Notes: generated by a model not told the origin, from the sequence alone. 64,000 bases of DNA from a virus (IMGVR_UViG_3300028048_000124:12294-76293); one strand, 5' to 3'; shown: positions 37,267 to 63,902, numbered from the stretch's first letter. Translations and numbers: made by a program.

Positions 37267-38277
37267 TTACGGTGCGTACAACGACATGCTCCTATAGAGT
37301 GCCTTCCTAGCCTTCTCCTTCATATTCTCCGGGAGTTTCTCAAGTAGCATCTCAATCCTCTCCTCCTGGAATTCCGACAGTTTGGCTGGAACGTCAGACC
37401 TTTCGTATTTGCTTCTTTGCGGGAATCTTGCCTTGAACCAATCGAACAGTTTTTGGTTTTCGTATATCAACTCGCCGCCTGTGTCCTGAAGGCACAGCAC
37501 CGCGAACCTCTGTGCCAATCCGTCGAGATTCACGTTGGGATTGGAGGAACTGATGGTCGTGCACCTAAATGTCTCCTTATCGACCTTTAACCCGCGTTTT
37601 CGTTGATAATGGTCATGGAGATAGACGTTAAGGTTATTGACCTGCCTGAACTTGCTGATTGAGGCGTCGATTGCCTCCTTGTGTTCCTTATAGCATCTTT
37701 CCATCTCGGATTTGAAATACGGTCTGAAGGAGTGATGCACAGTTATCGATTTGTCCTCAATCTTCCCATATATCTCCCTGTAGGTGTTGTCAAGGTGATG
37801 CCCGTACATCGTGTCCATCCTGGTCACGCCGTAGAATCTCGTATATTCCTCGTCGACTCCGTTGAAGAACATCGCCGGTGTCAACGCGCCGATTGCGAAT
37901 ACGTCGTCGTTGGCGTAGATGAATCTGTTGTTCACGCCAGGTATATTCCAGAGGAACATCTCTATCGCCGTGCTGTTGAACGTAGGCAAATACTCTTCAG
38001 GTATGAATTCCTTGTGAAGGACGACGTGTACCTTGCTTCTGTCAATCCACTCCGGGACCTGCGATTCGCTTTGGACGAGAAGGTGAATCTTTCCAATCCA
38101 GGGCATGTTCTTTTCCACGCACCTGAAGAAAAATCTGAAAAACTCTCCCTGACCCCTGAATCTGTTCGGTGCATCGACTCCCTCCTCATTGAGGTGTGGG
38201 CTGTATATCTCAAACAGTTTTTGCCATTCCGGGTCGGAGGAATCGACGTATGGCACTACTAAATCAATTGGCTCCAT
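37267..38277 (-). CDS. Stealth-family hexose-1-phosphate transferase (CpsY/SacB/XcbA-like)
   Basis: CR1 IDLVVPYVDSSDPEW; CR2 RF..GE.FRFFFRCVEKNMPWI..IHLL, LPTFNSTAIE, FIYANDD. Confidence 0.9.
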   Translation of the reverse strand: MEPIDLVVPYVDSSDPEWQKLFEIYSPHLNEEGVDAPNRFRGQGEFFRFFFRCVEKNMPWIGKIHLLVQSESQVPEWIDRSKVHVVLHKEFIPEEYLPTFNSTAIEMFLWNIPGVNNRFIYANDDVFAIGALTPAMFFNGVDEEYTRFYGVTRMDTMYGHHLDNTYREIYGKIEDKSITVHHSFRPYFKSEMERCYKEHKEAIDASISKFRQVNNLNVYLHDHYQRKRGLKVDKETFRCTTISSSNPNVNLDGLAQRFAVLCLQDTGGELIYENQKLFDWFKARFPQRSKYERSDVPAKLSEFQEERIEMLLEKLPENMKEKARKALYRSMSLYAP

Positions 38278-40786: not shown

Positions 40787-42727
40787 TTAGAATTGTGAAT
40801 TGTCCGTCCCATCTGGCACGCCTAACTCATCAAACGAAGGTAAGTATGATTCCTCGCCTTCGGTGCTGGGCTGCTCTTCGGTCGGAGGTACTTCCTCAGG
40901 TGGAGGCGGTAATTCACTTCCTGGTTCCTCTGGAGGAGTCTCAGTGCTCAACTCGGTCGGTCCTTCCCCGGACGTTTCAGGTTCCTTGCCCTCCTCGACT
41001 TCGTTCTCAAGAGAGTCAATGTAGTCCTGCAACAATGAGACGACCTCTGTATCAGCGATTGACTCAGCCAACAACGACTTCAGAATCTTCAACTTGATGA
41101 TTGGGTCTTGGATATCCGCCAATTGAACCATGATGTCGTTGATGACGCCGACTTTGTTCTTCTTGTTCTCACGTCTGTCCAACTCCTCTTGGGTGACAGG
41201 TGCCTGCATCCTGATTGTGAATTTGTTGACGTATCCGAAAAGTTTTCTGTCCATCAACATCAGGTTGACCAAATCGGTAATCATCTGGCACATCGTGTTT
41301 TGGACCCTCTTGACTGATTTGCCGTAACGAGAGGATTGGATTGACAGCGAAGTGCCGCCGTTGAATCCGGCACCGTCGTCGGTTACGCCGAAGAACGCCT
41401 TAGGGACGCCCAAGGCACCGAACAACTTGTCTTGGAAGTGGTCGATATCGGTGAATTGCTTTGGGTCGAAGTCACCGCCTACCGTGGTGGTCGTGATGTT
41501 TCCGATTCCTCCGTGTGTAGGGGCGTAGATGAAGTTCTCGACCGGTGCCGGGTTGTTATACTCGGTCATCGAGTGGTCTTTGTCCAACGAAATCTTCTGC
41601 TCCATCAATTGCTTGATTGACTGCAGGTGTGCGCCGATTTGCTCTTTCGGCATGTTTCCGACTTCGACGTTGACGATTCTAAGGATTGATGACTTTGTGA
41701 TTCTGTTCAACAACGCGGAATCCTCAAGCAACGTCAATTGCCTCCAAATCTTGAAGACGGTGGCCAACTCGGATTGGCCTCTTTTTACTTTGTATGTCCT
41801 TGCTCCGGTGTTGTTCTTGTAGTCGTCGTCATTGGTGAAGATGTCGACTTCCTCCGGAACCCTGCTCGAATTGTCTTCCAAACAGGCATGGACGAAATCG
41901 GTGGCGCCGTAAACCTCTATGTCCCTTTTCTTCAATTTGTATTGCAAAAGGGAATTGTACATCATGTCAGATTGCTTTGAGTATTGGATGTTGATTGGGG
42001 CTTTGACGAATCCCATCGTCTTGCCGAACTTGGTCAACTCGAACATCTCGCCGGGGTTTGGCACCATCTCGACGTAATTGACGTAATGGTCTCCCTGCTC
42101 ATGTAAAACGACGTTGACGTTCTCCTTCAACGATTCGACTTTCTCGGCATCCTTGACTGGGTCCAAACCCTCGTCGATTGAATCCAGGTTAAAACCTTCG
42201 TTAAGTTTTTCCCTTTCGTCTATTTTCTCCTTGTCGAACAATTCGTCTTCCTTTTCGTAGTCGGATTGTCTGTAAAGCCTTAGGTACAAATCACCGTATT
42301 TAATCAATGAGTGCATCCATCTGTATGCGTTTTTGTCGACGTTCATGCTGTCCAACAGATACGAAACGTATTTGCCGCAGTTGGCGTCGTCCGATTCGGC
42401 CCAGATGATTTGTCCGGCGTCGTTCGTTTCGACCGCGTCTTCGGCGACCGTCTTCAAATACGATGCCAAAATCGGGTCCTCCGACATGGTGTCAATCAAT
42501 CTGTAGATGTATTCCCTGTTTTGTGAGACGGTAGAAAAGCCCTCCAACTTAGAGATGTCTATGTTGGAATTGATTGCAGCACTGACGATATTGCTCAACA
42601 ACGTCTCATCCGTGTCGATGCCAATCTCGGCAGGCTCTTTCGGAACCGCTGTGACTTTGGTTCCGACTAATGGGTTTTCGGTAGTTTTCTTTTCCTCTGC
42701 CATCTTATTCTCCTTCCGCAATGTCAA
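40787..42727 (-). CDS. gp20: portal protein (T4 gp20-like)
   Basis: RSLIKYGD-like MHSLIKYGDLY, WRQLTLLEDSALLNR, V.VGNMPK, LFGALGVPKAF motifs; follows terminase. Confidence 0.9.
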   Translation of the reverse strand: MTLRKENKMAEEKKTTENPLVGTKVTAVPKEPAEIGIDTDETLLSNIVSAAINSNIDISKLEGFSTVSQNREYIYRLIDTMSEDPILASYLKTVAEDAVETNDAGQIIWAESDDANCGKYVSYLLDSMNVDKNAYRWMHSLIKYGDLYLRLYRQSDYEKEDELFDKEKIDEREKLNEGFNLDSIDEGLDPVKDAEKVESLKENVNVVLHEQGDHYVNYVEMVPNPGEMFELTKFGKTMGFVKAPINIQYSKQSDMMYNSLLQYKLKKRDIEVYGATDFVHACLEDNSSRVPEEVDIFTNDDDYKNNTGARTYKVKRGQSELATVFKIWRQLTLLEDSALLNRITKSSILRIVNVEVGNMPKEQIGAHLQSIKQLMEQKISLDKDHSMTEYNNPAPVENFIYAPTHGGIGNITTTTVGGDFDPKQFTDIDHFQDKLFGALGVPKAFFGVTDDGAGFNGGTSLSIQSSRYGKSVKRVQNTMCQMITDLVNLMLMDRKLFGYVNKFTIRMQAPVTQEELDRRENKKNKVGVINDIMVQLADIQDPIIKLKILKSLLAESIADTEVVSLLQDYIDSLENEVEEGKEPETSGEGPTELSTETPPEEPGSELPPPPEEVPPTEEQPSTEGEESYLPSFDELGVPDGTDNSQF

Positions 42728-52056: not shown

Positions 52057-54318
52057 TTAATAAACTCCTAAAATCTGCGTGATGTAGAATTTGCCCTTCT
52101 CCGATGAGTCACCATATGTGGGATATGTGTACCACGATAGGGTTTGTCCGTCTGCGCTGCATGAGAACCTGATTTTGAATGGCCATCCGGCATCGCTATC
52201 GGAACCAAGGGCTGAGCAATATACCGACACGTCGGCAGTTCCTGCTGCGATTAACTGAGGCATCAACACGAATTCAGCCTGGTTAGGCTCGGATACACCG
52301 AACTTATAACCGTGGCAGATGATGAATTTGTATTTCGTGATTCTGCTCATCGCGATTGAATCCAACTTTCCGCTGTCGACCTCAAGCACCGATTTTGGTG
52401 CGTATGTGTTCTGGACGGTGGTCTTGTAGGTTTCAAGTGCCGTCGAGATTGCGTCCGCATATGATTTGTTTGCGACGTCGTTGTTTTCCTTAGGCGTACC
52501 CGACTTCAACACGACTTCGTTGTCGGATGTGGTATGGTATTCTGCGACAGCACCGTCCATAGGTGTAGTCGTCGCAATCTTGGTCGTCTCAACGTCATCC
52601 TTCGAAATGGCATACAGGAGGTCATGTTCCTCGGAATGCTGTTTCTTGTCTACCTTTTTCTCCAAACCATACAAAACGGTTTCGTTCAAAATGGTATTCA
52701 ATTCGTTAATCAACGATTGTAGATGCTCCTCGGCTGCCGCTGCCCTGACTGCCTCCCCAGAGATTGAGCCTGACAATTCGGTGTCCCTTGCCAAACGGGT
52801 CGACGCTTCGCTTTGGATTGCGACCGTTAGGTTATCGACCGCTCCGTTAACTTTCGTGTTAACTCTTCCTTCAAGTTCCGTGTCGGCTGCCTGTCTCGCC
52901 GTCTTTTCTGCCAAGACCGCTGCGGCCCTGTCCGTGATTTCTGTATCTATCCTTGCACCCAAGGTGGTGTCGGCGTTGGCCCTTAAAGTCGCTTCGGCAC
53001 CAACGGCTTGGGTTCTTGCTGTCTCTTCTGCGTGCACCAGTGCCTCTACTGCTTGGTCACAGGCGATTCTTGCCGTCTCCTCAAGGTCTATGTTATGTTG
53101 TAATGCAGAGTCTGCGGCGTCCCTCACCGATGCTTCGTGGTTGATTCCTGCCAATAGGTCAGCCTCTTTTCCCTGTGCCCTATTGATTTCTCCGGTTAGA
53201 TTAGTAGCAAGAGTGGTGTCTCCGGCATTTCTCAAATCCCTCTCATCCATGATTGAATTGGCGAGTGCCGTCTCGGCTGCCTGAGCCCTGTCCTCTTCGT
53301 CCTCGACGGCGGCGATTGACGCTGCGTCCCCGGCGACCCTCGCGTTCGTTTCGGTGTCGATTCTGGTTCCGAGTGCAGAGTCTCCGGCCAACCTTGATGA
53401 TGCCTCGGACGTGATGTTCAATTGCAAGGCGTTGTCGTTTGCGATTCTAGTGTTCTGCTCGTCAGTGATTCTCGTGCTCAATGATGCGTCCGCAGATGCC
53501 CTTGCCGACTCTTCGGCAGCCAAGTTGTCGCTGATTATTCCCTCTGCCTCTTCTGCCCTGGCCCTTTCCTCTCCGACCTTGGTTTCGATTTCTACGGTGA
53601 TTGCCGCACCGCCGTTCTCAAGTGCGGTGACCCTGTCTGACAAAGCCGAGTCCGCGGCCTGTCTTGCCGCCGTCTCGTCCGAGATGTATCCGGAAAGTTC
53701 CCTGTCTCCGGATTCCCTTGCGGATTCCTCCGCGATTAATCTGTTGGATAATGCCTCTTCGGCCAAAGATGCCCTTGCGGATTCGTCTGCCAAGTCACCA
53801 GACAACTCGGATTCGGCTGCCATGGCCCTTGTCTTCTCCGCCTCGACTTTGTTATTGGCGAACGATTGCAGTCCGCCCAACGCACAGAACAGTTTACCGC
53901 TGTCCAACGTGAATTCCAAGTAGAAGTCTCCGACCGCCAATCCCGATAAAGGAATGCCGGCGGTTTCGCACATATTCATAGCGACGCCCTTCAATGAGTC
54001 GCTGAATGGAATCTCGATTGATGAACCTTGGACGACTTCGCTGTCGCCGATGAAAAGTGCGTATTTCTTGGCGAATTCGGTCGTTTCAATTTCCCTGATG
54101 AAATAATCGTTGATGTTGATTCTCAACTCTTCGAAACCATTGTATTCCCTAATGGCCGAACCGTCCTCGATGAACAAGGATTTGGGAAGCCTGGTGAAAT
54201 CGACGGCAATGGTTCTCTTACCGTTGTCTACGGTGACCTTTGCGGAATCCGTCTTGACTCCCTCGTAGTCCACGTTAACTAAATTCCTATTTAATTCACT
54301 GTATACGTAATCTGACAT
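52057..54318 (-). CDS. coiled-coil tail fibre protein
   Basis: Long E..RA..AE..L heptad repeats (aa ~150-540); downstream chaperone gene. Confidence 0.7.
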   Translation of the reverse strand: MSDYVYSELNRNLVNVDYEGVKTDSAKVTVDNGKRTIAVDFTRLPKSLFIEDGSAIREYNGFEELRININDYFIREIETTEFAKKYALFIGDSEVVQGSSIEIPFSDSLKGVAMNMCETAGIPLSGLAVGDFYLEFTLDSGKLFCALGGLQSFANNKVEAEKTRAMAAESELSGDLADESARASLAEEALSNRLIAEESARESGDRELSGYISDETAARQAADSALSDRVTALENGGAAITVEIETKVGEERARAEEAEGIISDNLAAEESARASADASLSTRITDEQNTRIANDNALQLNITSEASSRLAGDSALGTRIDTETNARVAGDAASIAAVEDEEDRAQAAETALANSIMDERDLRNAGDTTLATNLTGEINRAQGKEADLLAGINHEASVRDAADSALQHNIDLEETARIACDQAVEALVHAEETARTQAVGAEATLRANADTTLGARIDTEITDRAAAVLAEKTARQAADTELEGRVNTKVNGAVDNLTVAIQSEASTRLARDTELSGSISGEAVRAAAAEEHLQSLINELNTILNETVLYGLEKKVDKKQHSEEHDLLYAISKDDVETTKIATTTPMDGAVAEYHTTSDNEVVLKSGTPKENNDVANKSYADAISTALETYKTTVQNTYAPKSVLEVDSGKLDSIAMSRITKYKFIICHGYKFGVSEPNQAEFVLMPQLIAAGTADVSVYCSALGSDSDAGWPFKIRFSCSADGQTLSWYTYPTYGDSSEKGKFYITQILGVY

Positions 54319-54581: not shown

Positions 54582-55145
54582 TTAATCATCATATGTAATT
54601 CTTACATCACTATATAGCAACAATGGATGATAGAGATACGACGATATATTTGAAGTTGTTATTAGTGTGCCATCAAAACTTCGTAATGTTCCTGTGATAG
54701 AGGCTACACCACCACCAATACTTGTTAGAACAATAAATATTGCATATCTATATTGCTCCTTAGCCGGTAGATATGATAAATAATGATATCCAAATAAAAT
54801 ATCATCAACATTTCCTCCACTAGTTGATTCCTTATAGCCTAAATAATAAATCGGTCCACCAAATCCACCATTAGAAATATCAAATTTATAGGGAATATTT
54901 GGTAAAATTCTAAAATGATATTCATAACTTGAATAATTCAAGTCATCAATTACAACATTTCCTGTTACTCCGTTTATTGAGGTAACACCGCCACCGCCAC
55001 CGCCTTGCGGGGTTTGCCACGATAAATTGGTTCCGTCACTTGTGAGAACCTGTCCGTTCGTTCCGACGGTTGCGGGCAATTTGTCCGCTTTGTTTAGGAT
55101 GCTTTGGACTTGTGCCCCAGTTTGAGTCAATGTTGTGTTTGCCAT
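54582..55145 (-). CDS. fibre/decoration-array protein (LTQTG anchor plus variable C-terminus)
   Basis: MANTTLTQTGAQVQ shared with 59566; TVGTNGQVLTSDG fibre repeat. Confidence 0.6.
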   Translation of the reverse strand: MANTTLTQTGAQVQSILNKADKLPATVGTNGQVLTSDGTNLSWQTPQGGGGGGVTSINGVTGNVVIDDLNYSSYEYHFRILPNIPYKFDISNGGFGGPIYYLGYKESTSGGNVDDILFGYHYLSYLPAKEQYRYAIFIVLTSIGGGVASITGTLRSFDGTLITTSNISSYLYHPLLLYSDVRITYDD

Positions 55146-55184
55146 AAATTATTTTCTCCTTTTATGTTTGTCATTCAATGTAGG

Positions 55185-56000
55185 TTAATCGTTTGATAAA
55201 TAACTATATGCAGTGTTAGCCAGAATAATGTCATCAGAATTAACACGATTTGAACCAAGCGCAACAGCATATGCAGCGTCCGAGGTTACAATACGTCTAC
55301 TACTAACAGTTTTAAATCTGCCTTTATCATATGCTGTATAAACCCAAGTAAACCAATCCATACCAGCCTCCGCTTGATATGTATCCCCTTCAATTGTGAA
55401 CGAAATTAGTGTAACCGTGGTTACCAGATAACCGCCATCGCTGGTAAGCAACGCTCCGTCTCGAACGAGCAATGCGTTTTCAGGGATTGGTTCGGTCGCG
55501 CTTTCCCATATGAGCGAATTTCCGAGATATATTTTATTCACCTGTCGCGTGCCGAAGAACATATTGGCGATAGGGAGGTTGCCGATGGAGAAGGTGTTGG
55601 ATTGCTCTTGGATTTGCGTGGCATTGGCTTGAAGCCAAGAAATTAAATCACTATTAGTAACATCTTGCCCCCCAGTAATAGAAATAGTAGGTGGGGTAGA
55701 ACCTTTTATGTAAGTATAACCAGACGTTTCCGGGTCATAGACAGAATAATACCAACCTTCCCCATCAGAAACTTGACTATATAAGCCATCAGTAGAAGCA
55801 CAATAAAAACCACTTAACCCGTGCTCCAATAAAATCGTTTGAACAACCGCCCCCCTAAAAGAATAAGGTGACCTTAAAATAGTTCTTTCAACATTATCAT
55901 AAGAAGAAGTATAAGTAATATTAAAACCTTTGGTTGCACCAGCGGACGTGCACGTATCATTAAATCGCCACTTAGTACCCGTCAAATCGGTCACAGCCAT
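55185..56000 (-). CDS. fibre/decoration-array protein (TDLTGTKW, IYLG and beta-grasp-like modules)
   Basis: Paralog of 62949-63902; ends with the ISFTI.G.TYQAE module. Confidence 0.6.
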   Translation of the reverse strand: MAVTDLTGTKWRFNDTCTSAGATKGFNITYTSSYDNVERTILRSPYSFRGAVVQTILLEHGLSGFYCASTDGLYSQVSDGEGWYYSVYDPETSGYTYIKGSTPPTISITGGQDVTNSDLISWLQANATQIQEQSNTFSIGNLPIANMFFGTRQVNKIYLGNSLIWESATEPIPENALLVRDGALLTSDGGYLVTTVTLISFTIEGDTYQAEAGMDWFTWVYTAYDKGRFKTVSSRRIVTSDAAYAVALGSNRVNSDDIILANTAYSYLSND

Positions 56001-56653
56001 TATGAGTTACTCCCCGTGATGATGTAGAGATAGCCGTCATAACGCGTTGCAGGTTCGGAGGATAGGACGACTATTTTGATGTTACTAGCCCAATCGGGGT
56101 TGTTGGAGGTTGGAACGTCCACTGAATAGTCTACTGTTTCTGATGTATATGACCTATAGGCACTGGCAATACGAGTGTCAGCGAACTTTACTGTTGCGAT
56201 TTTCGTCGAAACGTCTATGGCAATACTATTAAAATCAGTCTCTTCTTCGCTAGTTGCCGTGCCAGCATAGAGGAACACAAAGTGCATAATATTCGTTCCA
56301 TTGTTATTATACGTTCCGTTATAATCCGCAACCACAACAGGCATATTCAAAGCGGACGCGTCTAATAAAACCGAGTGTCCATTCATTGTCGTGTATTGTT
56401 CATTGGTTAACTGAATTTGGAGAGGGCTTTGCGAAATCACCTGCGACACCGCGATTGTGATTGTGGGGATACCCCCCGCGCCGGCGATTGCCGAATCCAC
56501 CTGCGCCTTGGTGTAGACGTCGGAGGAATTCGCCTTCGCCGAAAGAAGCCCGTCTGCGGCGGTTTTGTCGTATACGTCGGCTTTCTTCGCATACGTGGTG
56601 TCGAGTTTGGACTTAAACGTTGTAAGTCCGGTTAAATCTAGGTATTTTGACAT
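56000..56653 (-). CDS. fibre/decoration-array protein (KYLDLTGL anchor)
   Basis: MSKYLDLTGL; PTITIA.SQVISQ module; ends RYDGYLYIIT. Confidence 0.6.
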   Translation of the reverse strand: MSKYLDLTGLTTFKSKLDTTYAKKADVYDKTAADGLLSAKANSSDVYTKAQVDSAIAGAGGIPTITIAVSQVISQSPLQIQLTNEQYTTMNGHSVLLDASALNMPVVVADYNGTYNNNGTNIMHFVFLYAGTATSEEETDFNSIAIDVSTKIATVKFADTRIASAYRSYTSETVDYSVDVPTSNNPDWASNIKIVVLSSEPATRYDGYLYIITGSNS

Positions 56654-56674
56654 TTTCTAAGTCCTCCTTTTGGG

Positions 56675-57100
56675 TTAGTTGGAACCGCCACCATAGGCGA
56701 CGCGTCTATATGTGGTATCAGCAACGATGACGTCAGAAGGAGCAACATCGATAACCGAATAGTGCAAGTCTGAGGATTTAACAGAATCGCCCTCCACTAC
56801 ATAATCACCATCTGTGTTATACGTGCTATTGACCCATTCAGTCCAAGTCATTCCTTCTTCCGCTTGATAGGTAGTTCCGTCAATAGTGAACGAAATTAAC
56901 GTGACCTCGACGAATAAGGCTTCTATCTCAGCGTTCGTAATCGAATCGACCTCGATTGCGATGTTCCCGCTTCCAAGTAGGCTATTGCCGTTGACGGTTT
57001 TGATGTTCGTCCCGCTGACGAGGGCATCCTGCTTTCCCGACACGGCATCCAATCTGTCGTCGATTTCCTGACCTGTGTATTTGCTTGTGTATTTTCCCAT
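56675..57100 (-). CDS. fibre/decoration-array protein ending in a beta-grasp-like module and GGG-SN
   Basis: YTSKYTGQEID anchor; KQDALVSGTNIKTVNGNSLLGSGNI fibre motif. Confidence 0.6.
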   Translation of the reverse strand: MGKYTSKYTGQEIDDRLDAVSGKQDALVSGTNIKTVNGNSLLGSGNIAIEVDSITNAEIEALFVEVTLISFTIDGTTYQAEEGMTWTEWVNSTYNTDGDYVVEGDSVKSSDLHYSVIDVAPSDVIVADTTYRRVAYGGGSN

Positions 57101-57158
57101 AAATCGTTTTCTCCTCTTATTAGATTTTAGCGTTTATGTTTGATGTTTCCCTTAATGA

Positions 57159-59318
57159 TTAGCCAATCGGCTGCCATGCGCCGTTGGCATATAACGCACT
57201 TTCAACGTATTCTCCACTATCGTTTGAATCTCCGATGTAGACTTGCTTCGGCTTCGCTTCGATTACAAGTGCGTTGCTGTTTACGAGGTTGAATGAGGTT
57301 GACCCCGTATCGAGAAGCAATAGGTTGTTTTCGGGTAGGGCAAATGAGACGGTGAAACGGTAAATTATACTTGAATATGTGTCAGGGTCAGTTTGCCCAC
57401 CGAATATGTAAATCTTTGTTCCAACAACACCACTCGCCATACGATAAATTACAGTTGGTAAGGTTGTGGATAATGTAGTTATTGTTTCCGTGACAGTGTC
57501 GAAGCAGTATATTGTGTTTAAAGCAACATTCCCAACAAACCCACCAAATAAGTAGATTTTTGTTCCAACAACACAACTCACCATATCTAGCATATATTTT
57601 GGAAGTTGAGTTGATAAAGTTGTGATTGTTTCAGTGGTTGTGTCGAAGCGATAGATTTTGTTTGAATAATTTGAACCACCAGAAACGTCGGTTGCACCAC
57701 CGAATATGTAAATCTTTGTTCCAACAACACCACTCGCCATACGATAAATTACATCTGGAAGGGTTGTAGATAGTGTTGTGATTGTTTCAGTGGTTGTGTC
57801 GAAGCGATAGATTTTGTTTGAATTTACTGAACCGCTAGACTCGTCAGCCTTTCCACCGAATAAGTAGATTTTCGTTCCCACAACACCGCTCGTCATATTA
57901 TGGAGTATTGTTGGCAACCTAGTGGATAGTATTGAAATCGTTTCGGTTTCGGTGTCAAAACAATAGATTTTGTCTGAATTCGTGCTGTGTGTAGTTAAAC
58001 CACCGAATATGTAAATCTTTGTTCCAACAACACCACTCGTCGTTCGATTGAGTGCATCTGGAAGGGTTGTAGATAGTGTTGTGATTGTTTCAGTGGTTGT
58101 GTCGAAGCGATAGATTTTGTTTGAATAACCACTTGAAGAACCACTAGCAAATCCACCAAATATATAAATCTTCGTCCCAACGACACCACTCACCATAACA
58201 CTAATTGCGGTAGGCAATGTTGCATCCAATGTGGAAATCGTCTCCGCCCCCAAAGCCAAGTCCTTGCTCACCGAAACCTTTTCTGGTTCGGTGTCCGTCT
58301 TGACCCACAATTTGGATGTGTCGCTAGGCGCGGTCGTTGACGAATAATGTATATTCAGTTCCACGCCTCCGCCACCGGTCTCGATGGCGGCGATTTCATT
58401 GGCGAAGTTCACGGGATACAGCGGGTCGCTCTTGCCCGTCTTGGCCCTAATCGCATTGGCGACGTCGGTGAAAATGTCGTTAAGATTCGGGTTCGATGGC
58501 GTAGGTTCGGGTTCAGGTTCGGGTTCTTCTTCCTCGATTTGCGTGGCATTGGCTTGAAGCCAAGAGATGAGGTCGGAATTGGTTACATCAGTTCCGCCTG
58601 TGATTTCGATTGTTGTTTCAATATCACCAAGGTTTAAAGTGTCATCGGAAGCCGCTTGAAACTGGACATAACTACTATTATTAGAAGGACTACAAAATAT
58701 AACAAACCTTGGATAAACAATAGGCGTGGCTGTAGCAAATAAACAGCCAGCAAATGAGCCTGTGGAACTATCAAATTGTTGTCGAATCCTAAATTCATTT
58801 TGTACAGCCGATTCATAAGTACTAGCATACATTTTATATACTAAATCAACCGAAGTTATTTTAACATACCCTTCTTCAAAACCAACACCGATAAATTCAC
58901 TAGGTTTTTTAATGAGCCACTTAGTTCCCGTCAAATCGGTTATTGCCGGTTCAACAACTTGCGTTGCGTTTGCCTGAAGCCAGGAAATTAAAGTTGCGTT
59001 TGTAGCATCAGTTCCACCTGTAATTTCAATAGTTCGAAAGGCTTCGGAGAGCCAGGCTTGCTTCCCTTGATAAACAATATTTTGTTGCTCAGAACTATCC
59101 CAATAAGAAAGTTCATCAAGAAGACCAAGTCCTAAAAGAATATAGTTAACCCCATCGCAATTAAAAGAAATTTTATAATCCACCGAACCAGTAAGGTCAA
59201 TTTCGCTATTAAAGAACCATTTAGTCCCCGTCAAATCGGTTATCGAATTGGTTGCTGTCTCTTGATAGTTGATTGTGATTGAACTCCCAATAACTGGTCC
59301 TGGTATATTTATTGGCAT
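57159..59318 (-). CDS. array protein with two TDLTGTKW modules and a six-bladed Kelch beta-propeller
   Basis: Six SGVVGTKIY(I/L)FGG...IY(R/C)FDT.TETI..L...LP repeats. Confidence 0.85.
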   Translation of the reverse strand: MPINIPGPVIGSSITINYQETATNSITDLTGTKWFFNSEIDLTGSVDYKISFNCDGVNYILLGLGLLDELSYWDSSEQQNIVYQGKQAWLSEAFRTIEITGGTDATNATLISWLQANATQVVEPAITDLTGTKWLIKKPSEFIGVGFEEGYVKITSVDLVYKMYASTYESAVQNEFRIRQQFDSSTGSFAGCLFATATPIVYPRFVIFCSPSNNSSYVQFQAASDDTLNLGDIETTIEITGGTDVTNSDLISWLQANATQIEEEEPEPEPEPTPSNPNLNDIFTDVANAIRAKTGKSDPLYPVNFANEIAAIETGGGGVELNIHYSSTTAPSDTSKLWVKTDTEPEKVSVSKDLALGAETISTLDATLPTAISVMVSGVVGTKIYIFGGFASGSSSGYSNKIYRFDTTTETITTLSTTLPDALNRTTSGVVGTKIYIFGGLTTHSTNSDKIYCFDTETETISILSTRLPTILHNMTSGVVGTKIYLFGGKADESSGSVNSNKIYRFDTTTETITTLSTTLPDVIYRMASGVVGTKIYIFGGATDVSGGSNYSNKIYRFDTTTETITTLSTQLPKYMLDMVSCVVGTKIYLFGGFVGNVALNTIYCFDTVTETITTLSTTLPTVIYRMASGVVGTKIYIFGGQTDPDTYSSIIYRFTVSFALPENNLLLLDTGSTSFNLVNSNALVIEAKPKQVYIGDSNDSGEYVESALYANGAWQPIG
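57360..58260 (-). repeat. Kelch repeats with near-identical DNA copies
   Basis: About 65 bp exact repeat at ~57758 and ~58060; unit 47-52 aa. Confidence 0.8.
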
Positions 59319-59330
59319 AATAAATCCTCC

Positions 59331-59552
59331 TTAGTCATTAGAGCCACCTGAGGCATATATCACAATGTCAGAATCGGAAATGTCTACCGTATCACCATTG
59401 GAATAGTAAGCCGAGTTGACTTCAAATGACGCGCCATATATGTTTGTGCTCGCCACTATCACGTCACCGTTGTGCAATTCGTATCCGCTTGACACTGTTG
59501 TTCCGTTGACTGTGCAGGTCACATTGCTACTGAATGTAAGATAATGAGCCAT
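59331..59552 (-). CDS. small array protein (divergent B-repeat-like) ending GG-SND
   Basis: Paralog of 62174-62410. Confidence 0.55.
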   Translation of the reverse strand: MAHYLTFSSNVTCTVNGTTVSSGYELHNGDVIVASTNIYGASFEVNSAYYSNGDTVDISDSDIVIYASGGSND

Positions 59553-59565
59553 AATCTTTTCCTCC

Positions 59566-60276
59566 CTAATAAGAAGCGTTTATCGCCCCGGTAACCGCCG
59601 TCGCTATGGCAGAATCGACTTCTGCTTTGGTATAGACATTGGCACTGTTTGCCTTTGCCGCCAACAAAGTGTCGGTTTCCGTTTTGGTATAAGTCGTTGC
59701 CTTGTCGGCCTTAAGGTTCAACGCAGTCTGGGTGGCCGTGCTTATAGGCTTATTTAAGTCGCTTGTGTTGTCCACGTTTCCGAGGCCGACGTCGGATTTA
59801 TCCAAAGAAACATCATAAGCATGGTTGGCTTTGGCGGGATAAGTGTTATTGAACTGCAATTCAGCGACTTTCGTAGAGGTGTTTACGAAGATTGTATGGA
59901 AATAAAGGTAGTCGGTATCCTCGCTGTAGACGAATGCGAATTTCAGGTGCCTAATATCATTATCATCGGTATAGGAGCCGATGTAATCCGCGACCACGGT
60001 GGTCATCCCCAATGCGGTTCCGTCGAATATGACGGAGCGTTCGCTCATCGCCGTGTATTGTTCGTCGGTGAGTTGCACCTGCATCGGGTCTTGCGAAATC
60101 ACCTGTGATTGTGCGATGGCGACGGTCGGAAGGCCTGAACCTCCGCTTGCACTCAATTCGCCGGAAGAGGAAAGGGTGAGTCCGCTTCCCACGGTCTTGA
60201 TTTCGGCCATGCCTTCGACTTTGTTCAAATCCGCCTGGACTTGTGCCCCAGTTTGCGTTAAAGTTGTGTTTGCCAT
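59566..60276 (-). CDS. fibre/decoration-array protein
   Basis: LTQTG anchor; VGLGNVDNTSDLNKPISTATQTAL fibre motif. Confidence 0.65.
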   Translation of the reverse strand: MANTTLTQTGAQVQADLNKVEGMAEIKTVGSGLTLSSSGELSASGGSGLPTVAIAQSQVISQDPMQVQLTDEQYTAMSERSVIFDGTALGMTTVVADYIGSYTDDNDIRHLKFAFVYSEDTDYLYFHTIFVNTSTKVAELQFNNTYPAKANHAYDVSLDKSDVGLGNVDNTSDLNKPISTATQTALNLKADKATTYTKTETDTLLAAKANSANVYTKAEVDSAIATAVTGAINASY

Positions 60277-60297
60277 AAATCATTTTCTCCTTTTATG

Positions 60298-61011
60298 TTA
60301 ATCATTTGAGCCACCACTGATATATGTTGCGTTAGCCACGATTTTAGCCGATTCCATCACTACCGAATGTTGTGCGTCTCTAATCTCTTCGCCACCCGGT
60401 CCGTAAATTCCATAGCCTCTCTGTGTAAATCCGTTAGTGTTATATTCGCTTGCAACCCATTCTCCCCAAGTCATTCCTTCCTCGGCTTGGTAGGTCGTTC
60501 CGCTAAATGTGAACGTAATCAACGTGACCTCCGTGGTTATCAGGTATCCGCCGCCATTTGCGAACAACTTACCGTCTTGTGCGAGCAAGGCGTTTTCCGG
60601 GACAGGTACTTCCCTCTCCCATATCAGTGAGTTGCCGAAGTATGCCTTAATGACATGTCTCGACCCGAAATGCATATCGGCGATTTTGAGGTTGCCGAAG
60701 AAGAATTTTGGTCTTTCTTGGGTAACTGCAACAGTATATCCCAAGTATCTGACTTCAGGACCAGTTGCTGTAATATTAAAAGTGTCTCCAACAGCGTTTC
60801 CTTCATCGGGAGTTGTTGCACCTTCTGTGTTTGCAAATCCTAAGAACACACCATCACCATCATATGTGTATACCGGTGATATGGCTGGGATGCCATCCAC
60901 AATCAACCCAGTCGATGTGATAAGAAACGTATATGTTTGCCCCTTGATTAAGTTAACATAATACTCGTCTCCATTTATTGCAAAACCAATTGGCATTGTC
61001 GTAATCGCCAT
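60298..61011 (-). CDS. array protein (IYLG-type module plus beta-grasp-like module) ending GG-SND
   Basis: MHFGSRHVIKAYFGNSLIWE; YQAEEGMTWGEWVASEYNT. Confidence 0.6.
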   Translation of the reverse strand: MAITTMPIGFAINGDEYYVNLIKGQTYTFLITSTGLIVDGIPAISPVYTYDGDGVFLGFANTEGATTPDEGNAVGDTFNITATGPEVRYLGYTVAVTQERPKFFFGNLKIADMHFGSRHVIKAYFGNSLIWEREVPVPENALLAQDGKLFANGGGYLITTEVTLITFTFSGTTYQAEEGMTWGEWVASEYNTNGFTQRGYGIYGPGGEEIRDAQHSVVMESAKIVANATYISGGSND

Positions 61012-61013
61012 AA

Positions 61014-62162
61014 TCAGTTACTCTCCGTTATGATGTAGAGCCAGCCATCATATTTGATAGCGGGGTCAAAATTTAGGACGGCTATTTTGAGAAGGTAACC
61101 AGTCGTATCTGCGGAGGTTGGTTGTTGTCCTTGATATCTAACTGCATATGTTGAATCTGATACCGTTGCTGACCTTGCCGTATCTGCTTCAACTGCTTGT
61201 TTTGGATACGTATTACCAAAATTTATGTTTGCGATTTTCGTTGAACAATTTACAAGAATTCTATTAAACTGAATAAAATTACCATCTGCATTATAGATGA
61301 ATACAAATTCTAGGTCACTAACAACGTCTGAGTCATCAGTTAAAGAACCATTATAATCCGCTACCACGGTTGGCACACCCAAAGCCGAGCCGTCAAATAT
61401 AACCGAGCCATGTTGCATTGTCGCATATTGTTCATCGGTTAACTGGATTTGTAACGGACTTTGCGAAATCACCTGTGACGCAGCAATCGTTATCGTCGGC
61501 AGACCGACGCTGGGCGTTGTCCATTCCGGTCCGTTCGTACCCGCAGTCAAAACCTGACCATTGGTGCCTCTGGCTAACCTTGTGGGAGTTCCGTTTGTAC
61601 CACCTACGACCAAATCGCCCTGCGTGGTCATAGGGTTGGCCATCTTAGTTGCCAAAAGTGCGTCTTCCTCTTCCTTGAAGACTGCGAGGTTGTCCAAGGT
61701 GATTAGTTTGTCAACTGAGGGTTCCGGTGTTGGCTCCGGTTCCGGTTCTGGGTCTTCGTCCTCGATTTGGGTGGCGTTGGATTGTAACCATGTGATTAAA
61801 TTCGAGTTAGTCGCATCAGTCCCGCCCGTGATTTCGATTGTGCGGTAGGCTTGATTTGACCATGTGCTAGTCCTTGAGTTATATGCATGTTCAAAATTAT
61901 TTGAGGAACCGGTTTGTGGAGTAGTCACAAAATATTTCAAACCGCGCCCACTGCCATAGAGGTCATCTGGGTCGGCAAATAAAGCGACAAAATTCTGGCT
62001 ATTGGAAGTAAACGAAATATTATAAGGTTCACCCCAAGCGTTTTCCGGTGCTTCATTTATCAGCCATTTAGTGCCTGTCAAATCGGTTATCGAACTGCTT
62101 GCGGTCTTGTGGTAGTTGATGGTGATTTGAGTGATTACTCTCTTTACTGGGTTAGTATTCAT
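61014..62162 (-). CDS. array protein (TDLTGTKW, anchor, fibre repeat and YDGWLY modules)
   Basis: Shares modules with 56000 and 57159; PEPEPEPTP linker. Confidence 0.6.
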   Translation of the reverse strand: MNTNPVKRVITQITINYHKTASSSITDLTGTKWLINEAPENAWGEPYNISFTSNSQNFVALFADPDDLYGSGRGLKYFVTTPQTGSSNNFEHAYNSRTSTWSNQAYRTIEITGGTDATNSNLITWLQSNATQIEDEDPEPEPEPTPEPSVDKLITLDNLAVFKEEEDALLATKMANPMTTQGDLVVGGTNGTPTRLARGTNGQVLTAGTNGPEWTTPSVGLPTITIAASQVISQSPLQIQLTDEQYATMQHGSVIFDGSALGVPTVVADYNGSLTDDSDVVSDLEFVFIYNADGNFIQFNRILVNCSTKIANINFGNTYPKQAVEADTARSATVSDSTYAVRYQGQQPTSADTTGYLLKIAVLNFDPAIKYDGWLYIITESN

Positions 62163-62173
62163 AATAAGCCTCC

Positions 62174-62410
62174 TTATTTAGAATCGGCACCGCCTGAGGC
62201 CGGTATGTAACTCACGCTTATACTCTTGTCGTAAACGTCAACCGTTTCCCCATTGATATGCCCTGCGTCGGAGTTGACTGAAATAGTACCTCCGGCCGAT
62301 GAGGCACTCACCACTATAACATCACCGTCGTGTAATTCATATCCACTGGAAACGGACGTCCCGTTGACTGTGCAGGTCACGGAACTATCGAATGTAAGAT
62401 AATCCACCAT
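62174..62410 (-). CDS. small array protein ending GG-ADSK
   Basis: Paralog of 59331-59552. Confidence 0.55.
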   Translation of the reverse strand: MVDYLTFDSSVTCTVNGTSVSSGYELHDGDVIVVSASSAGGTISVNSDAGHINGETVDVYDKSISVSYIPASGGADSK

Positions 62411-62447
62411 AATTCATTTTCTCCTTTTGGGTTAATTAGGTTATTGG

Positions 62448-62930
62448 TTAGCGGCTATCGCCACCGCTTGATGTAGCCGTATATGTAGTATTAGGTATGA
62501 TTTCGGTAGAAGAAGTAACGTTCTCAACACGTCTATTCCCGTCTGCGGTGTAAATATTATCATTCATCACTTTAAATCCGCCAGTATTGTATTCGCTTGC
62601 AACCCATTCTCCCCACGTCATACCTTCTTCGGCTTGATATGATTTGCTACTACCAATGTTAAACGAAATCAACGTAGGCGTGGTAGTTTCCGGTGTCGTA
62701 TCCGGTGTCGTTTCCGTATTCGTTTCCGGGGTAGTCGTCGTCCCGTTTCCGAACAACGCACGCACCTCCGCCTCTGTGGCGGTCTCATAGGAACCCCCGC
62801 TTGCGGAAATCTCCCCGCCTTCTGAGAGGGTTAATCCCGTGCCTATCGTTTTGATGTTGGCCAGTCCCTCGACCTTATTCAAATCGGCCTGCAGTTCGGT
62901 TCCGGTTTGTGTTAATCTGAAGTTTGACAT
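62448..62930 (-). CDS. array protein (LTQTG anchor, Thr/Pro linker, beta-grasp-like module) ending GG-DSR
   Basis: Shares the N-terminus with 59566 and the C-terminus with 60298. Confidence 0.6.
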   Translation of the reverse strand: MSNFRLTQTGTELQADLNKVEGLANIKTIGTGLTLSEGGEISASGGSYETATEAEVRALFGNGTTTTPETNTETTPDTTPETTTPTLISFNIGSSKSYQAEEGMTWGEWVASEYNTGGFKVMNDNIYTADGNRRVENVTSSTEIIPNTTYTATSSGGDSR

Positions 62931-62948
62931 TATTCATTTCCTCCTTTG

Positions 62949-63902
62949 TCATTCATCGTATACCTGTACGTCCTCGCCACCCCAAGTGGTCACGACCTCC
63001 CCGGCCGCGGTCTCCACGGAAATCACCCTTGTATCGAAGATTGCGCCATTGGAGCAGTAGAGGTAGTCGCCGTTATTTAGTAAGAAGTTCGAGTCCTCAA
63101 CGACCGGCTTGGCCTCGTATATAAGGATGTCCCCAAGGTATACCTTCATCACCGGCAACTCCCCGAAATATATGTTTTCGATTGGCAGGTTTCCGATGGA
63201 GAAGATGTTGGATGGTTCGGGTGAAGACATTTTTTCAAAAACATCCAAAAAAGAAATTGGAACTTCTAAACTTTCGTTAATAGTCAAGATTCTACCCAAA
63301 TCATAGCCAGTTCCCCACCCTATAGACCCTTGAACATTACTATACGGAATCGCATAAACTATATCAGAACCATTATAAAAACCAAGAGCATAAAGAGCCC
63401 CGTTCATCTTTTTAGTAAATAAAATTCGGTCAACATAATCAGATGCAAGATTGAAATTACCATAAATATCAAAAGTTAATAGTTGAATCTCATCCTTAAG
63501 TCTATAAGTTTCACCTGCGGTCAAATCGATTATTTGTGTCGCGTTTGCTTCTAGCCAAGTGATTAAATCGGAATTGGTGACGTCCGTTCCGCCTGTGATT
63601 TCGATTGTGGGAGGAGTGGACAATTTAACATAAGGGTTAACACTAGTGTCATACCACCCCTCTCCTTCACTAGCAGCACTATAAATTAGGTCATCACTCG
63701 TAATATAAGTTCCACTTGAACTATATCCAAGCATTATCGTAGATACTCGATAAACCCTTTCAAGGTAAGGTGATGATAAACTAGTCCGTTCTTCATTATC
63801 AACGGAGGAAATATAAGTAATGTTAAAACTAGAACTTGCCCCGGCGGACGTGCATACATCGTTAAACAACCATTTCGTTCCCGTCAAATCGGTCACTGCC
63901 AT
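62949..63902 (-). CDS. array protein (TDLTGTKW plus IYLG modules)
   Basis: Paralog of 55185-56000. Confidence 0.6.
   Translation of the reverse strand: MAVTDLTGTKWLFNDVCTSAGASSSFNITYISSVDNEERTSLSSPYLERVYRVSTIMLGYSSSGTYITSDDLIYSAASEGEGWYDTSVNPYVKLSTPPTIEITGGTDVTNSDLITWLEANATQIIDLTAGETYRLKDEIQLLTFDIYGNFNLASDYVDRILFTKKMNGALYALGFYNGSDIVYAIPYSNVQGSIGWGTGYDLGRILTINESLEVPISFLDVFEKMSSPEPSNIFSIGNLPIENIYFGELPVMKVYLGDILIYEAKPVVEDSNFLLNNGDYLYCSNGAIFDTRVISVETAAGEVVTTWGGEDVQVYDE

What the first reader, a model, noticed from the sequence alone, without database searches (positions are those of the whole stretch)
55185..62930. Shared C-terminal Gly-Gly + 2-4 aa tag, mostly on ubiquitin-like (beta-grasp) modules, in virion-array proteins
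Seen: five array proteins end GG plus a short tail: AYGGG-SN (56675), ASGG-SND (59331), ISGG-SND (60298), ASGG-ADSK (62174) and SSGG-DSR (62448). A sixth (55185) keeps SND but has lost GG. Three of the five (plus 55185) end in the module ISFTIDGTTYQAEEGMTWGEWV...I.ANTTY, which parallels ThiS/ubiquitin (ILFNDQAMQCAAGQTVHELL...GDQILL...GG). The other two belong to a different small family, so the tag is not tied to one domain. Known: bacterial Ubls are often made with a short extension after GG, trimmed by JAB/DUB proteases and conjugated by E1/E2; the Bil defence system attaches a Ubl to phage tail proteins. Inference: a phage-encoded ubiquitin-like tagging system that covalently decorates virions with swappable modules, or decoys that soak up host Ubl-conjugation defences. 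No E1/E2/JAB is visible in this window, and a plain InlB-B-repeat-type adhesin fold is an alternative explanation.
Basis: partly seen in the sequence, partly recalled or inferred. Interest (0 to 1): 0.8.

Follow-up and report, generated by a model that had tools for sequence, protein, structure and literature searches.

The report
Gly-Gly tails on phage fibre tips
Several fibre proteins of this T4-like gut or rumen phage end in a small ubiquitin-shaped knob followed by a conserved Gly-Gly plus short polar tail, but no ubiquitin-type enzymes are present, so it is most likely an end-cap on receptor-binding tips and its role remains unexplained.

Summary
Five of the 12 genes in the minus-strand fibre array (54582-63902) end in GG plus 2-4 residues. 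A sixth keeps SND without GG. Chance gives P of about 3e-4.

Three of the five, plus the sixth, end in a ~70-aa module I call M. AlphaFold predicts a beta-grasp for it (pLDDT 89). M is a large family absent from Pfam, with 2357 representative homologues. It occurs as the single C-terminal tip of phage fibre or receptor-binding proteins. It also occurs as up to 16 tandem internal copies in surface proteins, some of which also carry BspA-type LRRs.

The tail (Y-x4-5-GG(G)-[S/A]-[N/D]) is conserved at protein level and is specific to copies that end the chain:
- C-terminal copies: 46 of 107 have it.
- Internal copies: 13 of 189 have it.
- About half of terminal copies lack it.

ThiF/E1, JAB, C39, Prok-E2_B and Pup-ligase gave no hit in this record. 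They also gave none in M-carrying viral records that include four at least 91% complete phages with GG tails. A phage-encoded ubiquitin-like tagging system is therefore not supported.

My best reading is a modular receptor-binding tip array whose terminal beta-grasp knobs carry a flexible Gly hinge and polar cap. The cap's function is unexplained. Use by host enzymes cannot be excluded.

The parts
62448..62930 (-). 160-aa fibre protein. N-terminus MSNFRLTQTGTELQ, a Thr/Pro-rich linker, and module M at the C-terminus (62451-62678). Ends SSGG-DSR.
62174..62410 (-). 78-aa small all-beta protein of family S. Ends ASGG-ADSK. Its stop lies 11 nt upstream of the start of the 382-aa fibre gene.
60298..61011 (-). 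237-aa fibre protein with module M at the C-terminus (60301-60528). Ends ISGG-SND.
59331..59552 (-). 73-aa family S protein. Ends ASGG-SND. Its stop lies 12 nt upstream of the start of the 719-aa Kelch fibre gene.
56675..57100 (-). 141-aa fibre protein. Fibre-type N-terminus with the SGTNIKTVNGNSLLGSGNI motif, and module M at the C-terminus (56678-56905). Ends YGGG-SN. This module was the one folded.
55185..56000 (-). 271-aa fibre protein with a divergent module M at the C-terminus (55188-55415). Ends SYL-SND with no GG.
61014..62162 (-). 382-aa fibre protein ending in a different C-terminal domain (family Y, YIITESN). The GAGAGT codons form the Shine-Dalgarno (SD, ribosome-binding) site of the next gene.
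56000..56653 (-). 217-aa fibre protein of family Y. Ends YIITGSNS. GGGGAG inside the last codons lies 9 nt before the overlapping ATG of the next gene.
57159..59318 (-). 719-aa fibre protein with a C-terminal Kelch beta-propeller. It has no GG tail and is context for the array.
59566..60276 (-). 236-aa protein with hits to PHROG tail fibre and minor tail families. Ends INASY and is context for the array.

Best explanation
The stretch is part of a modular fibre or receptor-binding gene array of a T4-like phage from gut or rumen metagenomes. The host is probably a member of the Clostridia (inferred). Four array proteins end in module M, a ~70-aa beta-grasp knob. M belongs to a large, un-annotated repeat family that serves as the distal tip of phage fibres and as tandem repeats in surface proteins, some of which also carry BspA-LRR. 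I infer that it acts as an adhesin-type ligand-binding module, like the InlB B-repeat or SLBB class of beta-grasps. The two small proteins (family S) are a separate, rare all-beta family. In all three cases seen, S is encoded directly upstream of a large fibre gene. The motif GG(G)-[S/A]-[N/D](D) is a real C-terminal extension conserved at protein level, and it is used only where the domain ends the polypeptide. I read it as a flexible glycine hinge with a polar or acidic end that stays on the mature tip as a terminal cap, not as a ubiquitin-type processing and conjugation site. Shown: the motif, its restriction to terminal copies, the predicted fold, the family's architecture, and the absence of conjugation enzymes from the phage genomes searched. 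Inferred: ligand binding by M, retention of the tail, and its capping role.
For: The phage is T4-like: Portal_T4, Gp23 major capsid protein and S77 prohead protease are in the window. The array has tail-fibre PHROG hits and a Kelch tip.

The AlphaFold2 model of M has pLDDT 88.8, order bb-a-bbb..b, and a low-confidence tail. Every top structural match is a beta-grasp, but all are weak: Foldseek E 0.06-0.2, and VIA Z 5.0 to Mth1743 and the transcobalamin beta domain, 4.4 to InlB B-repeat 2y5p (rmsd 2.2 over 55 residues), and 4.1-4.6 to ThiS and MoaD. Atlas structure neighbours are DUF4430, Fer2_4, ThiS and RnfH.

M has 2357 homologues at E<1e-3, with up to 16 matched stretches per protein. LRR_5 occurs in three of the nine large hits scanned.

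GG within 16 residues after the conserved Tyr is found in 46 of 107 C-terminal copies. It is found in 6 of 113 copies followed by another M and in 7 of 76 followed by other sequence (Fisher p=3e-13). Terminal copies fall into two classes: short hydrophobic ends, and Y-x4-5-GG(G) plus 1-3 residues. The last residue is N in 28 and D in 16 of 110.

In a complete 35-kb phage, the M-ended 501-aa protein sits just upstream of holin and endolysin, which I read as a usual place for a receptor-binding protein.

ThiF and Prok-JAB gave no hit in this record or in 19 M-carrying viral records, 8 of them at least 90% complete. JAB, C39, Prok-E2_B and Pup-ligase gave no hit in this record or in four at least 91% complete GG-tailed phages.

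By contrast, the C-terminal Gly of BilA is fully conserved in all homologues (10.1101/2023.09.04.556158).
Against: Beta-grasp, then the last strand, then GG, then 1-4 extra residues is exactly the layout of ubiquitin-like precursors. A passive cap does not explain three things:
- The motif is this conserved, and it is kept in the otherwise variable C-terminal half of family S.
- It recurs on at least three different domain types in this phage lineage: M, S, and the C-terminal domain of the 257-aa protein in L010.
- It is commoner on viral contigs (13/18) than on MAG contigs (3/18).

Host-encoded E1 or JAB enzymes were not and could not be examined. The window's record is only 44% complete. The Prok-E2_B search rang in no control genome, so that negative is uninformative. 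No experiment bears on whether the tail is retained.
Confidence: 0.55

Rival explanations
1. The tail is a recognition tag shared by several tip domains. It would be read by a phage or host assembly factor or modifying enzyme, for example glycosylation or phosphoglycosylation of virion proteins at flexible C-terminal tails.
For: The same [S/A]GGSND-type end sits on at least three different domain types in this lineage. It is conserved at protein level with varied codons. It is commoner on viral than on MAG contigs. A Stealth_CR2 hexose-1-phosphotransferase-type gene lies in the structural operon (37267-38277) and also in the 161-kb M-carrying record G001. From memory, not re-read here: mycobacteriophage capsid and tail-tube subunits are glycosylated near their C-termini (Freeman et al. 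2023, Cell Host Microbe). That paper is not held in the library.
Against: Three complete 35-38 kb phages with GG-tailed M proteins have no Stealth gene. Many tails have no Ser or Thr (GGGGAN, GGGAD, GGGGN, GGGI). No partner gene was identified.
Confidence: 0.12
2. The tails are ubiquitin-like (or MccA- or Pup-like) C-terminal tags. They would be trimmed and activated by host enzymes to cross-link fibres, or they would act as decoys that occupy host Bil/Bub-type conjugation defences.
For: M has a predicted beta-grasp with GG directly after the last strand. Weak local matches link S to MoaD, SAMP1 and ThiS, and Atlas neighbours are ThiS/MoaD-like. A short overhang after the Gly also occurs in 12 BilA homologues. 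The terminal Asn or Asp recalls MccA and Pup chemistry (my own knowledge).
Against: No E1, JAB, C39, Prok-E2_B or Pup-ligase hit appeared in this record or in near-complete GG-tailed relatives. GG is absent from about half of terminal copies and from nearly all internal tandem copies. The residues after GG are themselves constrained (S/A then N/D), which is unlike a discarded propeptide. The domains sit at the ends of 140-500-aa fibre proteins, not on free small modifiers.
Confidence: 0.07
3. The tails are a by-product of gene-boundary DNA: Shine-Dalgarno (SD) sites of tightly coupled downstream genes, or recombination junctions used for cassette swapping.
For: In family Y the terminal G/E-S codons (GGGGAG, GGAGAG) lie 9 nt before the next ATG, and GSN is kept in all 17 homologues that carry the domain. 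In L010 the GGAGGT of SGGSND lies 10 nt before an overlapping ATG. The array is clearly shuffled from modules.
Against: For M and S in the window the Gly codons are mostly GGT GGC, and each downstream gene has its own AAGGAG or GGAGG after the stop. Codons for G, S, N and D vary freely across homologues while the peptide is kept. Linkers after internal M copies are P/T/D/E-rich, not Gly-rich.
Confidence: 0.08

Closest known systems
InlB B-repeat / Flg_new-type beta-grasp adhesin repeats of Gram-positive surface proteins (PDB 2y5p; PMC8900821)
   Same: A small (~70 aa) beta-grasp-like domain that occurs singly or in tandem next to leucine-rich repeats in surface proteins, with no role in conjugation. 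VIA Z is 4.4, rmsd 2.2 over 55 residues, against the M model. Atlas structure neighbours of family S include Flg_new_2 proteins.
   Different: There is no sequence match to any Pfam family. M keeps the helix between beta2 and beta3, which the B-repeat lacks. M is used as the C-terminal tip of phage fibres and often carries the GG(G)-x-N/D tail.
Ubiquitin-like modifiers and sulfur carriers (ThiS, MoaD, SAMP, ubiquitin, BilA)
   Same: A predicted beta-grasp with Gly-Gly immediately after the last strand, sometimes with a short overhang.
   Different: No E1, E2 or JAB hit in the phage records searched. Gly is not obligatory. The domain also forms internal tandem repeats and sits at the end of fibre proteins. 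Structural scores are only Z 4-5, which is typical of a shared common fold.
Modular receptor-binding fibre arrays of large myoviruses (multiple fibre genes with swapped tip domains)
   Same: A run of co-oriented fibre genes built from shared N-terminal and exchangeable C-terminal modules, with a Kelch propeller and other tips. The same organisation is seen in relatives L001 and L010.
   Different: The tip domains (M, S, Y) are not in Pfam and are mostly not in PHROGs. The shared C-terminal peptide on different tip domains was not found described in the four paper searches run here.

Membership tests
Ubiquitin-like conjugated modifiers (Ub/ThiS/MoaD/SAMP/BilA type) | Beta-grasp fold | tested here: met
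   For M, the AlphaFold2 model has pLDDT 88.8 with order bb-a-bbb..b, and all top Foldseek and VIA matches are beta-grasps, though weak (E>=0.06, Z<=5.0). For S the result is inconclusive: the model is all-beta with no helix, and the best Z of 4.3 is a mix of multi-ubiquitin and Ig-like pilin domains.
Ubiquitin-like conjugated modifiers (Ub/ThiS/MoaD/SAMP/BilA type) | Obligatory, family-wide conserved C-terminal Gly (Gly-Gly) as the site of activation | tested here: not met
   GG is present in 46 of 107 terminal and 13 of 189 internal M copies. Many terminal copies end 1-6 residues after the conserved Tyr. Five of 7 S members have GG. In BilA the Gly is fully conserved.
Ubiquitin-like conjugated modifiers (Ub/ThiS/MoaD/SAMP/BilA type) | E1-like adenylating enzyme (ThiF family) encoded with it | tested here: not met
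   PF00899 gave no hit in this record or in 19 M-carrying viral records, 8 of them at least 90% complete. The same search rang in 12 of 14 control genomes. Host genomes were not testable.
Ubiquitin-like conjugated modifiers (Ub/ThiS/MoaD/SAMP/BilA type) | JAB/MPN or other peptidase to trim the overhang, and an E2 where used | tested here: not met
   PF14464 gave no hit in this record or the 19 viral records. PF01398 and PF03412 gave no hit in this record or in four at least 91% complete GG-tailed phages. The Prok-E2_B search is uninformative because no control genome rang.
InlB B-repeat / Flg_new (Pfam PF09479, PF18998) | Sequence match to the family model | tested here: not met
   No Pfam family at E<=10 except local Fer2_4 hairpin matches. 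No PDB sequence matched the A2 profile at E<=1.
InlB B-repeat / Flg_new (Pfam PF09479, PF18998) | Beta-grasp-like repeat used in tandem in surface proteins with LRR domains | tested here: met
   There are 5-16 tandem M copies in 700-2800-aa proteins, and LRR_5 occurs in three of the nine scanned. 2y5p matches at Z 4.4.
Phage tail fibre / receptor-binding proteins | Location in the virion or tail module, fibre-type N-terminal and shaft motifs, exchangeable C-terminal tip | tested here: met
   PHROG tail fibre, minor tail and virion structural protein hits are found in the array. The array lies in the same co-oriented gene block as T4-type portal, capsid and protease genes. An M-ended protein sits just before holin and endolysin in a complete small phage. 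One M-ended protein matches PHROG 7064, tail protein.

The most novel reading that the evidence does not exclude
The GG(G)-[S/A]-[N/D] end could be a true portable C-terminal tag. It would be placed on unrelated fibre-tip domains (M, S and a third domain in a relative) so that a host or undiscovered phage enzyme recognises and processes or activates them. That enzyme could be E1-, MccB- or PafA-like, or a peptidase. The outcome would be covalent attachment of swappable tips to the virion, or jamming of host ubiquitin-like antiphage conjugation.
Probability: 0.07. Interest if true: 0.85.

Novelty: new member of a known kind. Interest (0 to 1): 0.35.

Why it matters
The ubiquitin-like tagging idea would have been striking, and the tests available here do not support it. 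Three results remain useful.

First, there is a very large beta-grasp repeat family that Pfam does not cover. It has thousands of representatives in gut and rumen phage fibres and in surface proteins of gut and rumen bacteria (mostly Clostridia MAGs). It deserves a family definition and a structure.

Second, there is a clear, statistically solid and still unexplained C-terminal peptide motif, specific to terminal copies and shared by different tip domains. It is easy to test by mass spectrometry or mutagenesis.

Third, it is a caution: beta-grasp plus terminal GG is not enough to call a ubiquitin-like modifier.

Tried and rejected
- SD explanation for the GG codons. Rejected for M and S, because the codons are GGT GGC and a separate SD follows the stop. 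Kept only for family Y and one gene in L010.
- 'Vestigial inter-domain linker'. Rejected, because internal M copies are followed by P/T/D/E-rich linkers and only 7 of 76 have GG.
- Link between the Stealth glycosyl-phosphotransferase and the tails. Not supported, because three complete GG-tailed phages lack Stealth.
- tblastn of M against 50,697 isolated-phage records: no match.
- The A2 profile against PDB sequences: no match.
- Search for longer fused forms of family S: none found, which is weak evidence.
- Foldseek and VIA for S: no clear fold.
- Tree of 103 terminal M modules. GG state needs at least 23 changes against 34 ± 2.7 for shuffled labels. The trait is clustered but not one clade. 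The 66-column tree is too weak to say more.
- Complex prediction for a homotrimer of the 141-aa protein.
- The Freeman 2023 paper is not held in the library.
- The Prok-E2_B search rang in no control genome, so it is uninformative.
Full report
**What is there.** The window is bases 12294-76293 of a 76.3-kb linear IMG/VR virus record that CheckV rates 44% complete. Every gene I called is on the minus strand. The window carries a T4-type portal (40787-42727), a Gp23-type major capsid protein (32603-33931) and an S77 prohead protease (33965-35536). The phage is therefore a distant T4-like myovirus. From 54582 to the window end lies a run of 12 short-to-medium genes. They give PHROG hits to tail fibre, minor tail and virion structural proteins, and one has a Kelch beta-propeller. 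The genes are built from shared N-terminal motifs and exchangeable C-terminal domains. The same kind of array is present in two related contigs, L001 and L010.

**The observation.**
- Three GG-tailed proteins (160, 237 and 141 aa) and the GG-less 271-aa protein end in the same ~76-aa module, which I call M.
- The 73- and 78-aa proteins form a separate small family, S.
- In the window, GG plus 1-4 residues ends 5 of 12 array genes but only 2 of 44 other genes (p=0.003).
- Given the array's own GG frequency, five or more of 12 has P=3e-4.
- The Gly codons are mostly GGT GGC, and each downstream gene has its own Shine-Dalgarno (SD) site after the stop.
- Across homologues the codons for G, S, N and D vary while the peptide is kept. 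The conservation is therefore at protein level.

**Module M.** A full HMMER search of 1.84 billion representative proteins found 2357 proteins at E<1e-3. Many have 5-16 matched stretches in proteins of 700-2800 aa. Three of the nine large hits scanned also carry BspA-type LRR_5.

M matches no Pfam family apart from a local similarity of its first hairpin to Fer2_4. It matches no PDB sequence and no isolated-phage record.

With a 30-sequence alignment (A2), AlphaFold2 gives a confident model: pLDDT 88.8, pTM 0.78, order bb-a-bbb..b. The last six residues, the GGGSN tail, have low confidence.
- Foldseek finds nothing significant, but every top match is a beta-grasp (NuoG-type 2Fe-2S domain, SUMO2, ubiquitin, TGS; E 0.06-0.2).
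- An exhaustive VIA search gives Z 5.0 to Mth1743 and the transcobalamin beta domain, 4.6 to MoaD, 4.4 to the InlB B-repeat (rmsd 2.2 over 55 residues), and 4.1-4.2 to ThiS.
- The Atlas's own model has DUF4430, Fer2_4, ThiS and RnfH as neighbours.

I accept a beta-grasp topology. The scores are those of a shared common fold, not of a specific family.

**The tail in homologues.** I built an HMM of M up to its conserved C-terminal Tyr and classified 296 domain instances in the 150 best hits. The table gives how often GG occurs within 16 residues after the Tyr.

| Position of the M copy | Copies with GG |
|---|---|
| Ends the protein | 46 of 107 |
| Followed by another M | 6 of 113 |
| Followed by other sequence | 7 of 76 |

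Terminal against internal copies gives p=3e-13.

Terminal copies fall into two classes. One class stops 1-6 mostly hydrophobic residues after the Tyr. The other runs Y-x4-5-GG(G) plus 1-3 residues rich in S, A, N and D. The last residue is N in 28 and D in 16 of 110.

On IMG/VR contigs, 13 of 18 complete ORFs ending in M have the tail. On bacterial MAG contigs, mostly gut and rumen Clostridia, 3 of 18 do (p=0.002). On a weak tree of 103 terminal modules the trait needs at least 23 changes, against 34 ± 2.7 for shuffled labels.

The tail is therefore a real, recurrent and optional feature of terminal copies only. It is not a generic linker.

**Family S.** Only six database homologues were found. 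The N-terminal half is almost invariant and the C-terminal half is variable. SGG is kept in 5 of 7 members, followed by 3-4 varying residues.

The AlphaFold2 model (pLDDT 82) is all-beta without a helix. Foldseek gives only short local matches to MoaD, SAMP1 and ThiS (33 columns, E 0.6-1.7). VIA gives a best Z of 4.3, a mix of multi-ubiquitin and Ig-like pilin domains. Atlas structural neighbours include ThiS/MoaD and InlB-B-repeat (Flg_new_2) proteins at TM 0.45-0.55. The InlB B-repeat is itself a beta-grasp lacking the helix (PMC8900821), so S may be of that type. This remains inconclusive.

S lies 11-14 nt upstream of a large fibre gene whose product carries ITINY...SI(T/S)DLTGTKW near its N-terminus, in all three cases seen. 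No longer fused form was found.

**Other tails.** A third C-terminal domain, family Y (…YLYIITGSN), ends G/E-S-N in the window and in all 17 homologues that carry it. There the GGGGAG or GGAGAG inside the last codons lies 9 nt before the next, overlapping start codon. A DNA-level reason is therefore likely for that family.

In L010, a 257-aa protein has a Y domain followed by yet another domain that ends SRSGGSND. So the [S/A]GGSND end occurs on at least three different domain types in this lineage.

**Test of the ubiquitin-like reading.** ThiF/E1 (PF00899) and Prok-JAB (PF14464) gave no hit in this record. They also gave none in 19 viral records that carry M. Eight of those records are at least 90% complete. 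Four of these (G001, G010, G011, G017) have GG-tailed M proteins. Both searches rang in control genomes.

JAB/MPN (PF01398), peptidase C39, Prok-E2_B and Pup ligase also gave no hit in this record or in the four near-complete GG-tailed phages. The Prok-E2_B search had no positive control, so that negative is uninformative.

In the Bil system the terminal Gly of the Ubl is fully conserved and essential, although a few homologues carry 2-9-residue overhangs (10.1101/2023.09.04.556158). Here GG is optional. The residues after it are themselves constrained. The domain also occurs as internal tandem repeats without GG at the junctions.

A phage-encoded tagging system is therefore not supported. Use by host enzymes cannot be tested with these data.

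**Other ideas tested.** A Stealth_CR2 gene sits in the structural operon (37267-38277) and in the 161-kb M-carrying record G001. It is absent from three complete small phages with GG tails. Many tails also have no Ser or Thr. Tail glycosylation is thus possible in this lineage but cannot be the general explanation.

In a complete 35-kb phage the M-ended 501-aa protein lies immediately before holin and endolysin. This fits a receptor-binding protein.

**Verdict.** The fold guess for M is supported. The conjugation-system interpretation is not.

My best reading (0.55) is an array of alternative receptor-binding tips. Its beta-grasp knobs belong to a large un-annotated adhesin-type repeat family. 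When they end the chain, they often carry a flexible Gly hinge with a polar N/D end that stays on the protein.

Why that end is conserved is unexplained.

Noticed in passing
window 37267-38277 (-); L021 (G001:C1:24959-28276): A Stealth_CR2 (hexose-1-phosphotransferase-type) gene lies inside the structural operon next to the portal, at E 1e-29. A counterpart is present in the 161-kb M-carrying record G001.
   Followed up: partly
window 56678-56905, 60301-60528, 62451-62678, 55188-55415 (-); alignment A2: Module M is a large domain family absent from Pfam and from PDB sequences. It has 2357 representative proteins at E<1e-3, up to 16 matched stretches per protein, sometimes alongside BspA LRR_5, mostly in gut and rumen Clostridia MAGs and phages. 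It is a candidate for a new family definition.
   Followed up: yes
window 59331-59552 and 62174-62410 (-); L001:10001-10240: The small family S gene is always immediately upstream (11-14 nt) of a large fibre gene whose product carries ITINY...SI(T/S)DLTGTKW near its N-terminus (three of three cases). This suggests a fibre-associated partner or adaptor. No fused form was found.
   Followed up: partly
window 56000-56020 and 61014-61030 (-): In family Y (…YIITGSN/ESN) the last codons contain GGGGAG or GGAGAG 9 nt before the overlapping or adjacent start of the next gene. The conserved G/E-S-N end probably doubles as that gene's ribosome-binding site.
   Followed up: partly
L010:1361-2134: A 257-aa fibre protein in the 161-kb M-carrying record G001 has an internal Y-type domain (…YIYIITASNS) followed by a further unknown domain ending SRSGGSND. 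This is a third domain type with the same terminal peptide. Here GGAGGT is also the SD of the overlapping next gene.
   Followed up: no
window 57159-59318 (-); L010:91-1344: A fibre protein with a six-blade Kelch beta-propeller tip (Pfam E 2e-45) sits in the array. A shorter Kelch homologue occupies the matching place in the 161-kb record G001.
   Followed up: no
window 35616-37211 (-): A 531-aa protein among the head genes carries a BspA-type LRR_5 segment (E 4e-9). This is the same LRR type that accompanies tandem M repeats in three of the nine large hits scanned.
   Followed up: no
window 52057-54318 (-): A 753-aa protein has a long Ala/Glu/Ser-rich repetitive central region (…AEESARASAD…-type repeats), probably a coiled-coil or fibrous shaft. 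It lies just downstream of the short-fibre array.
   Followed up: no
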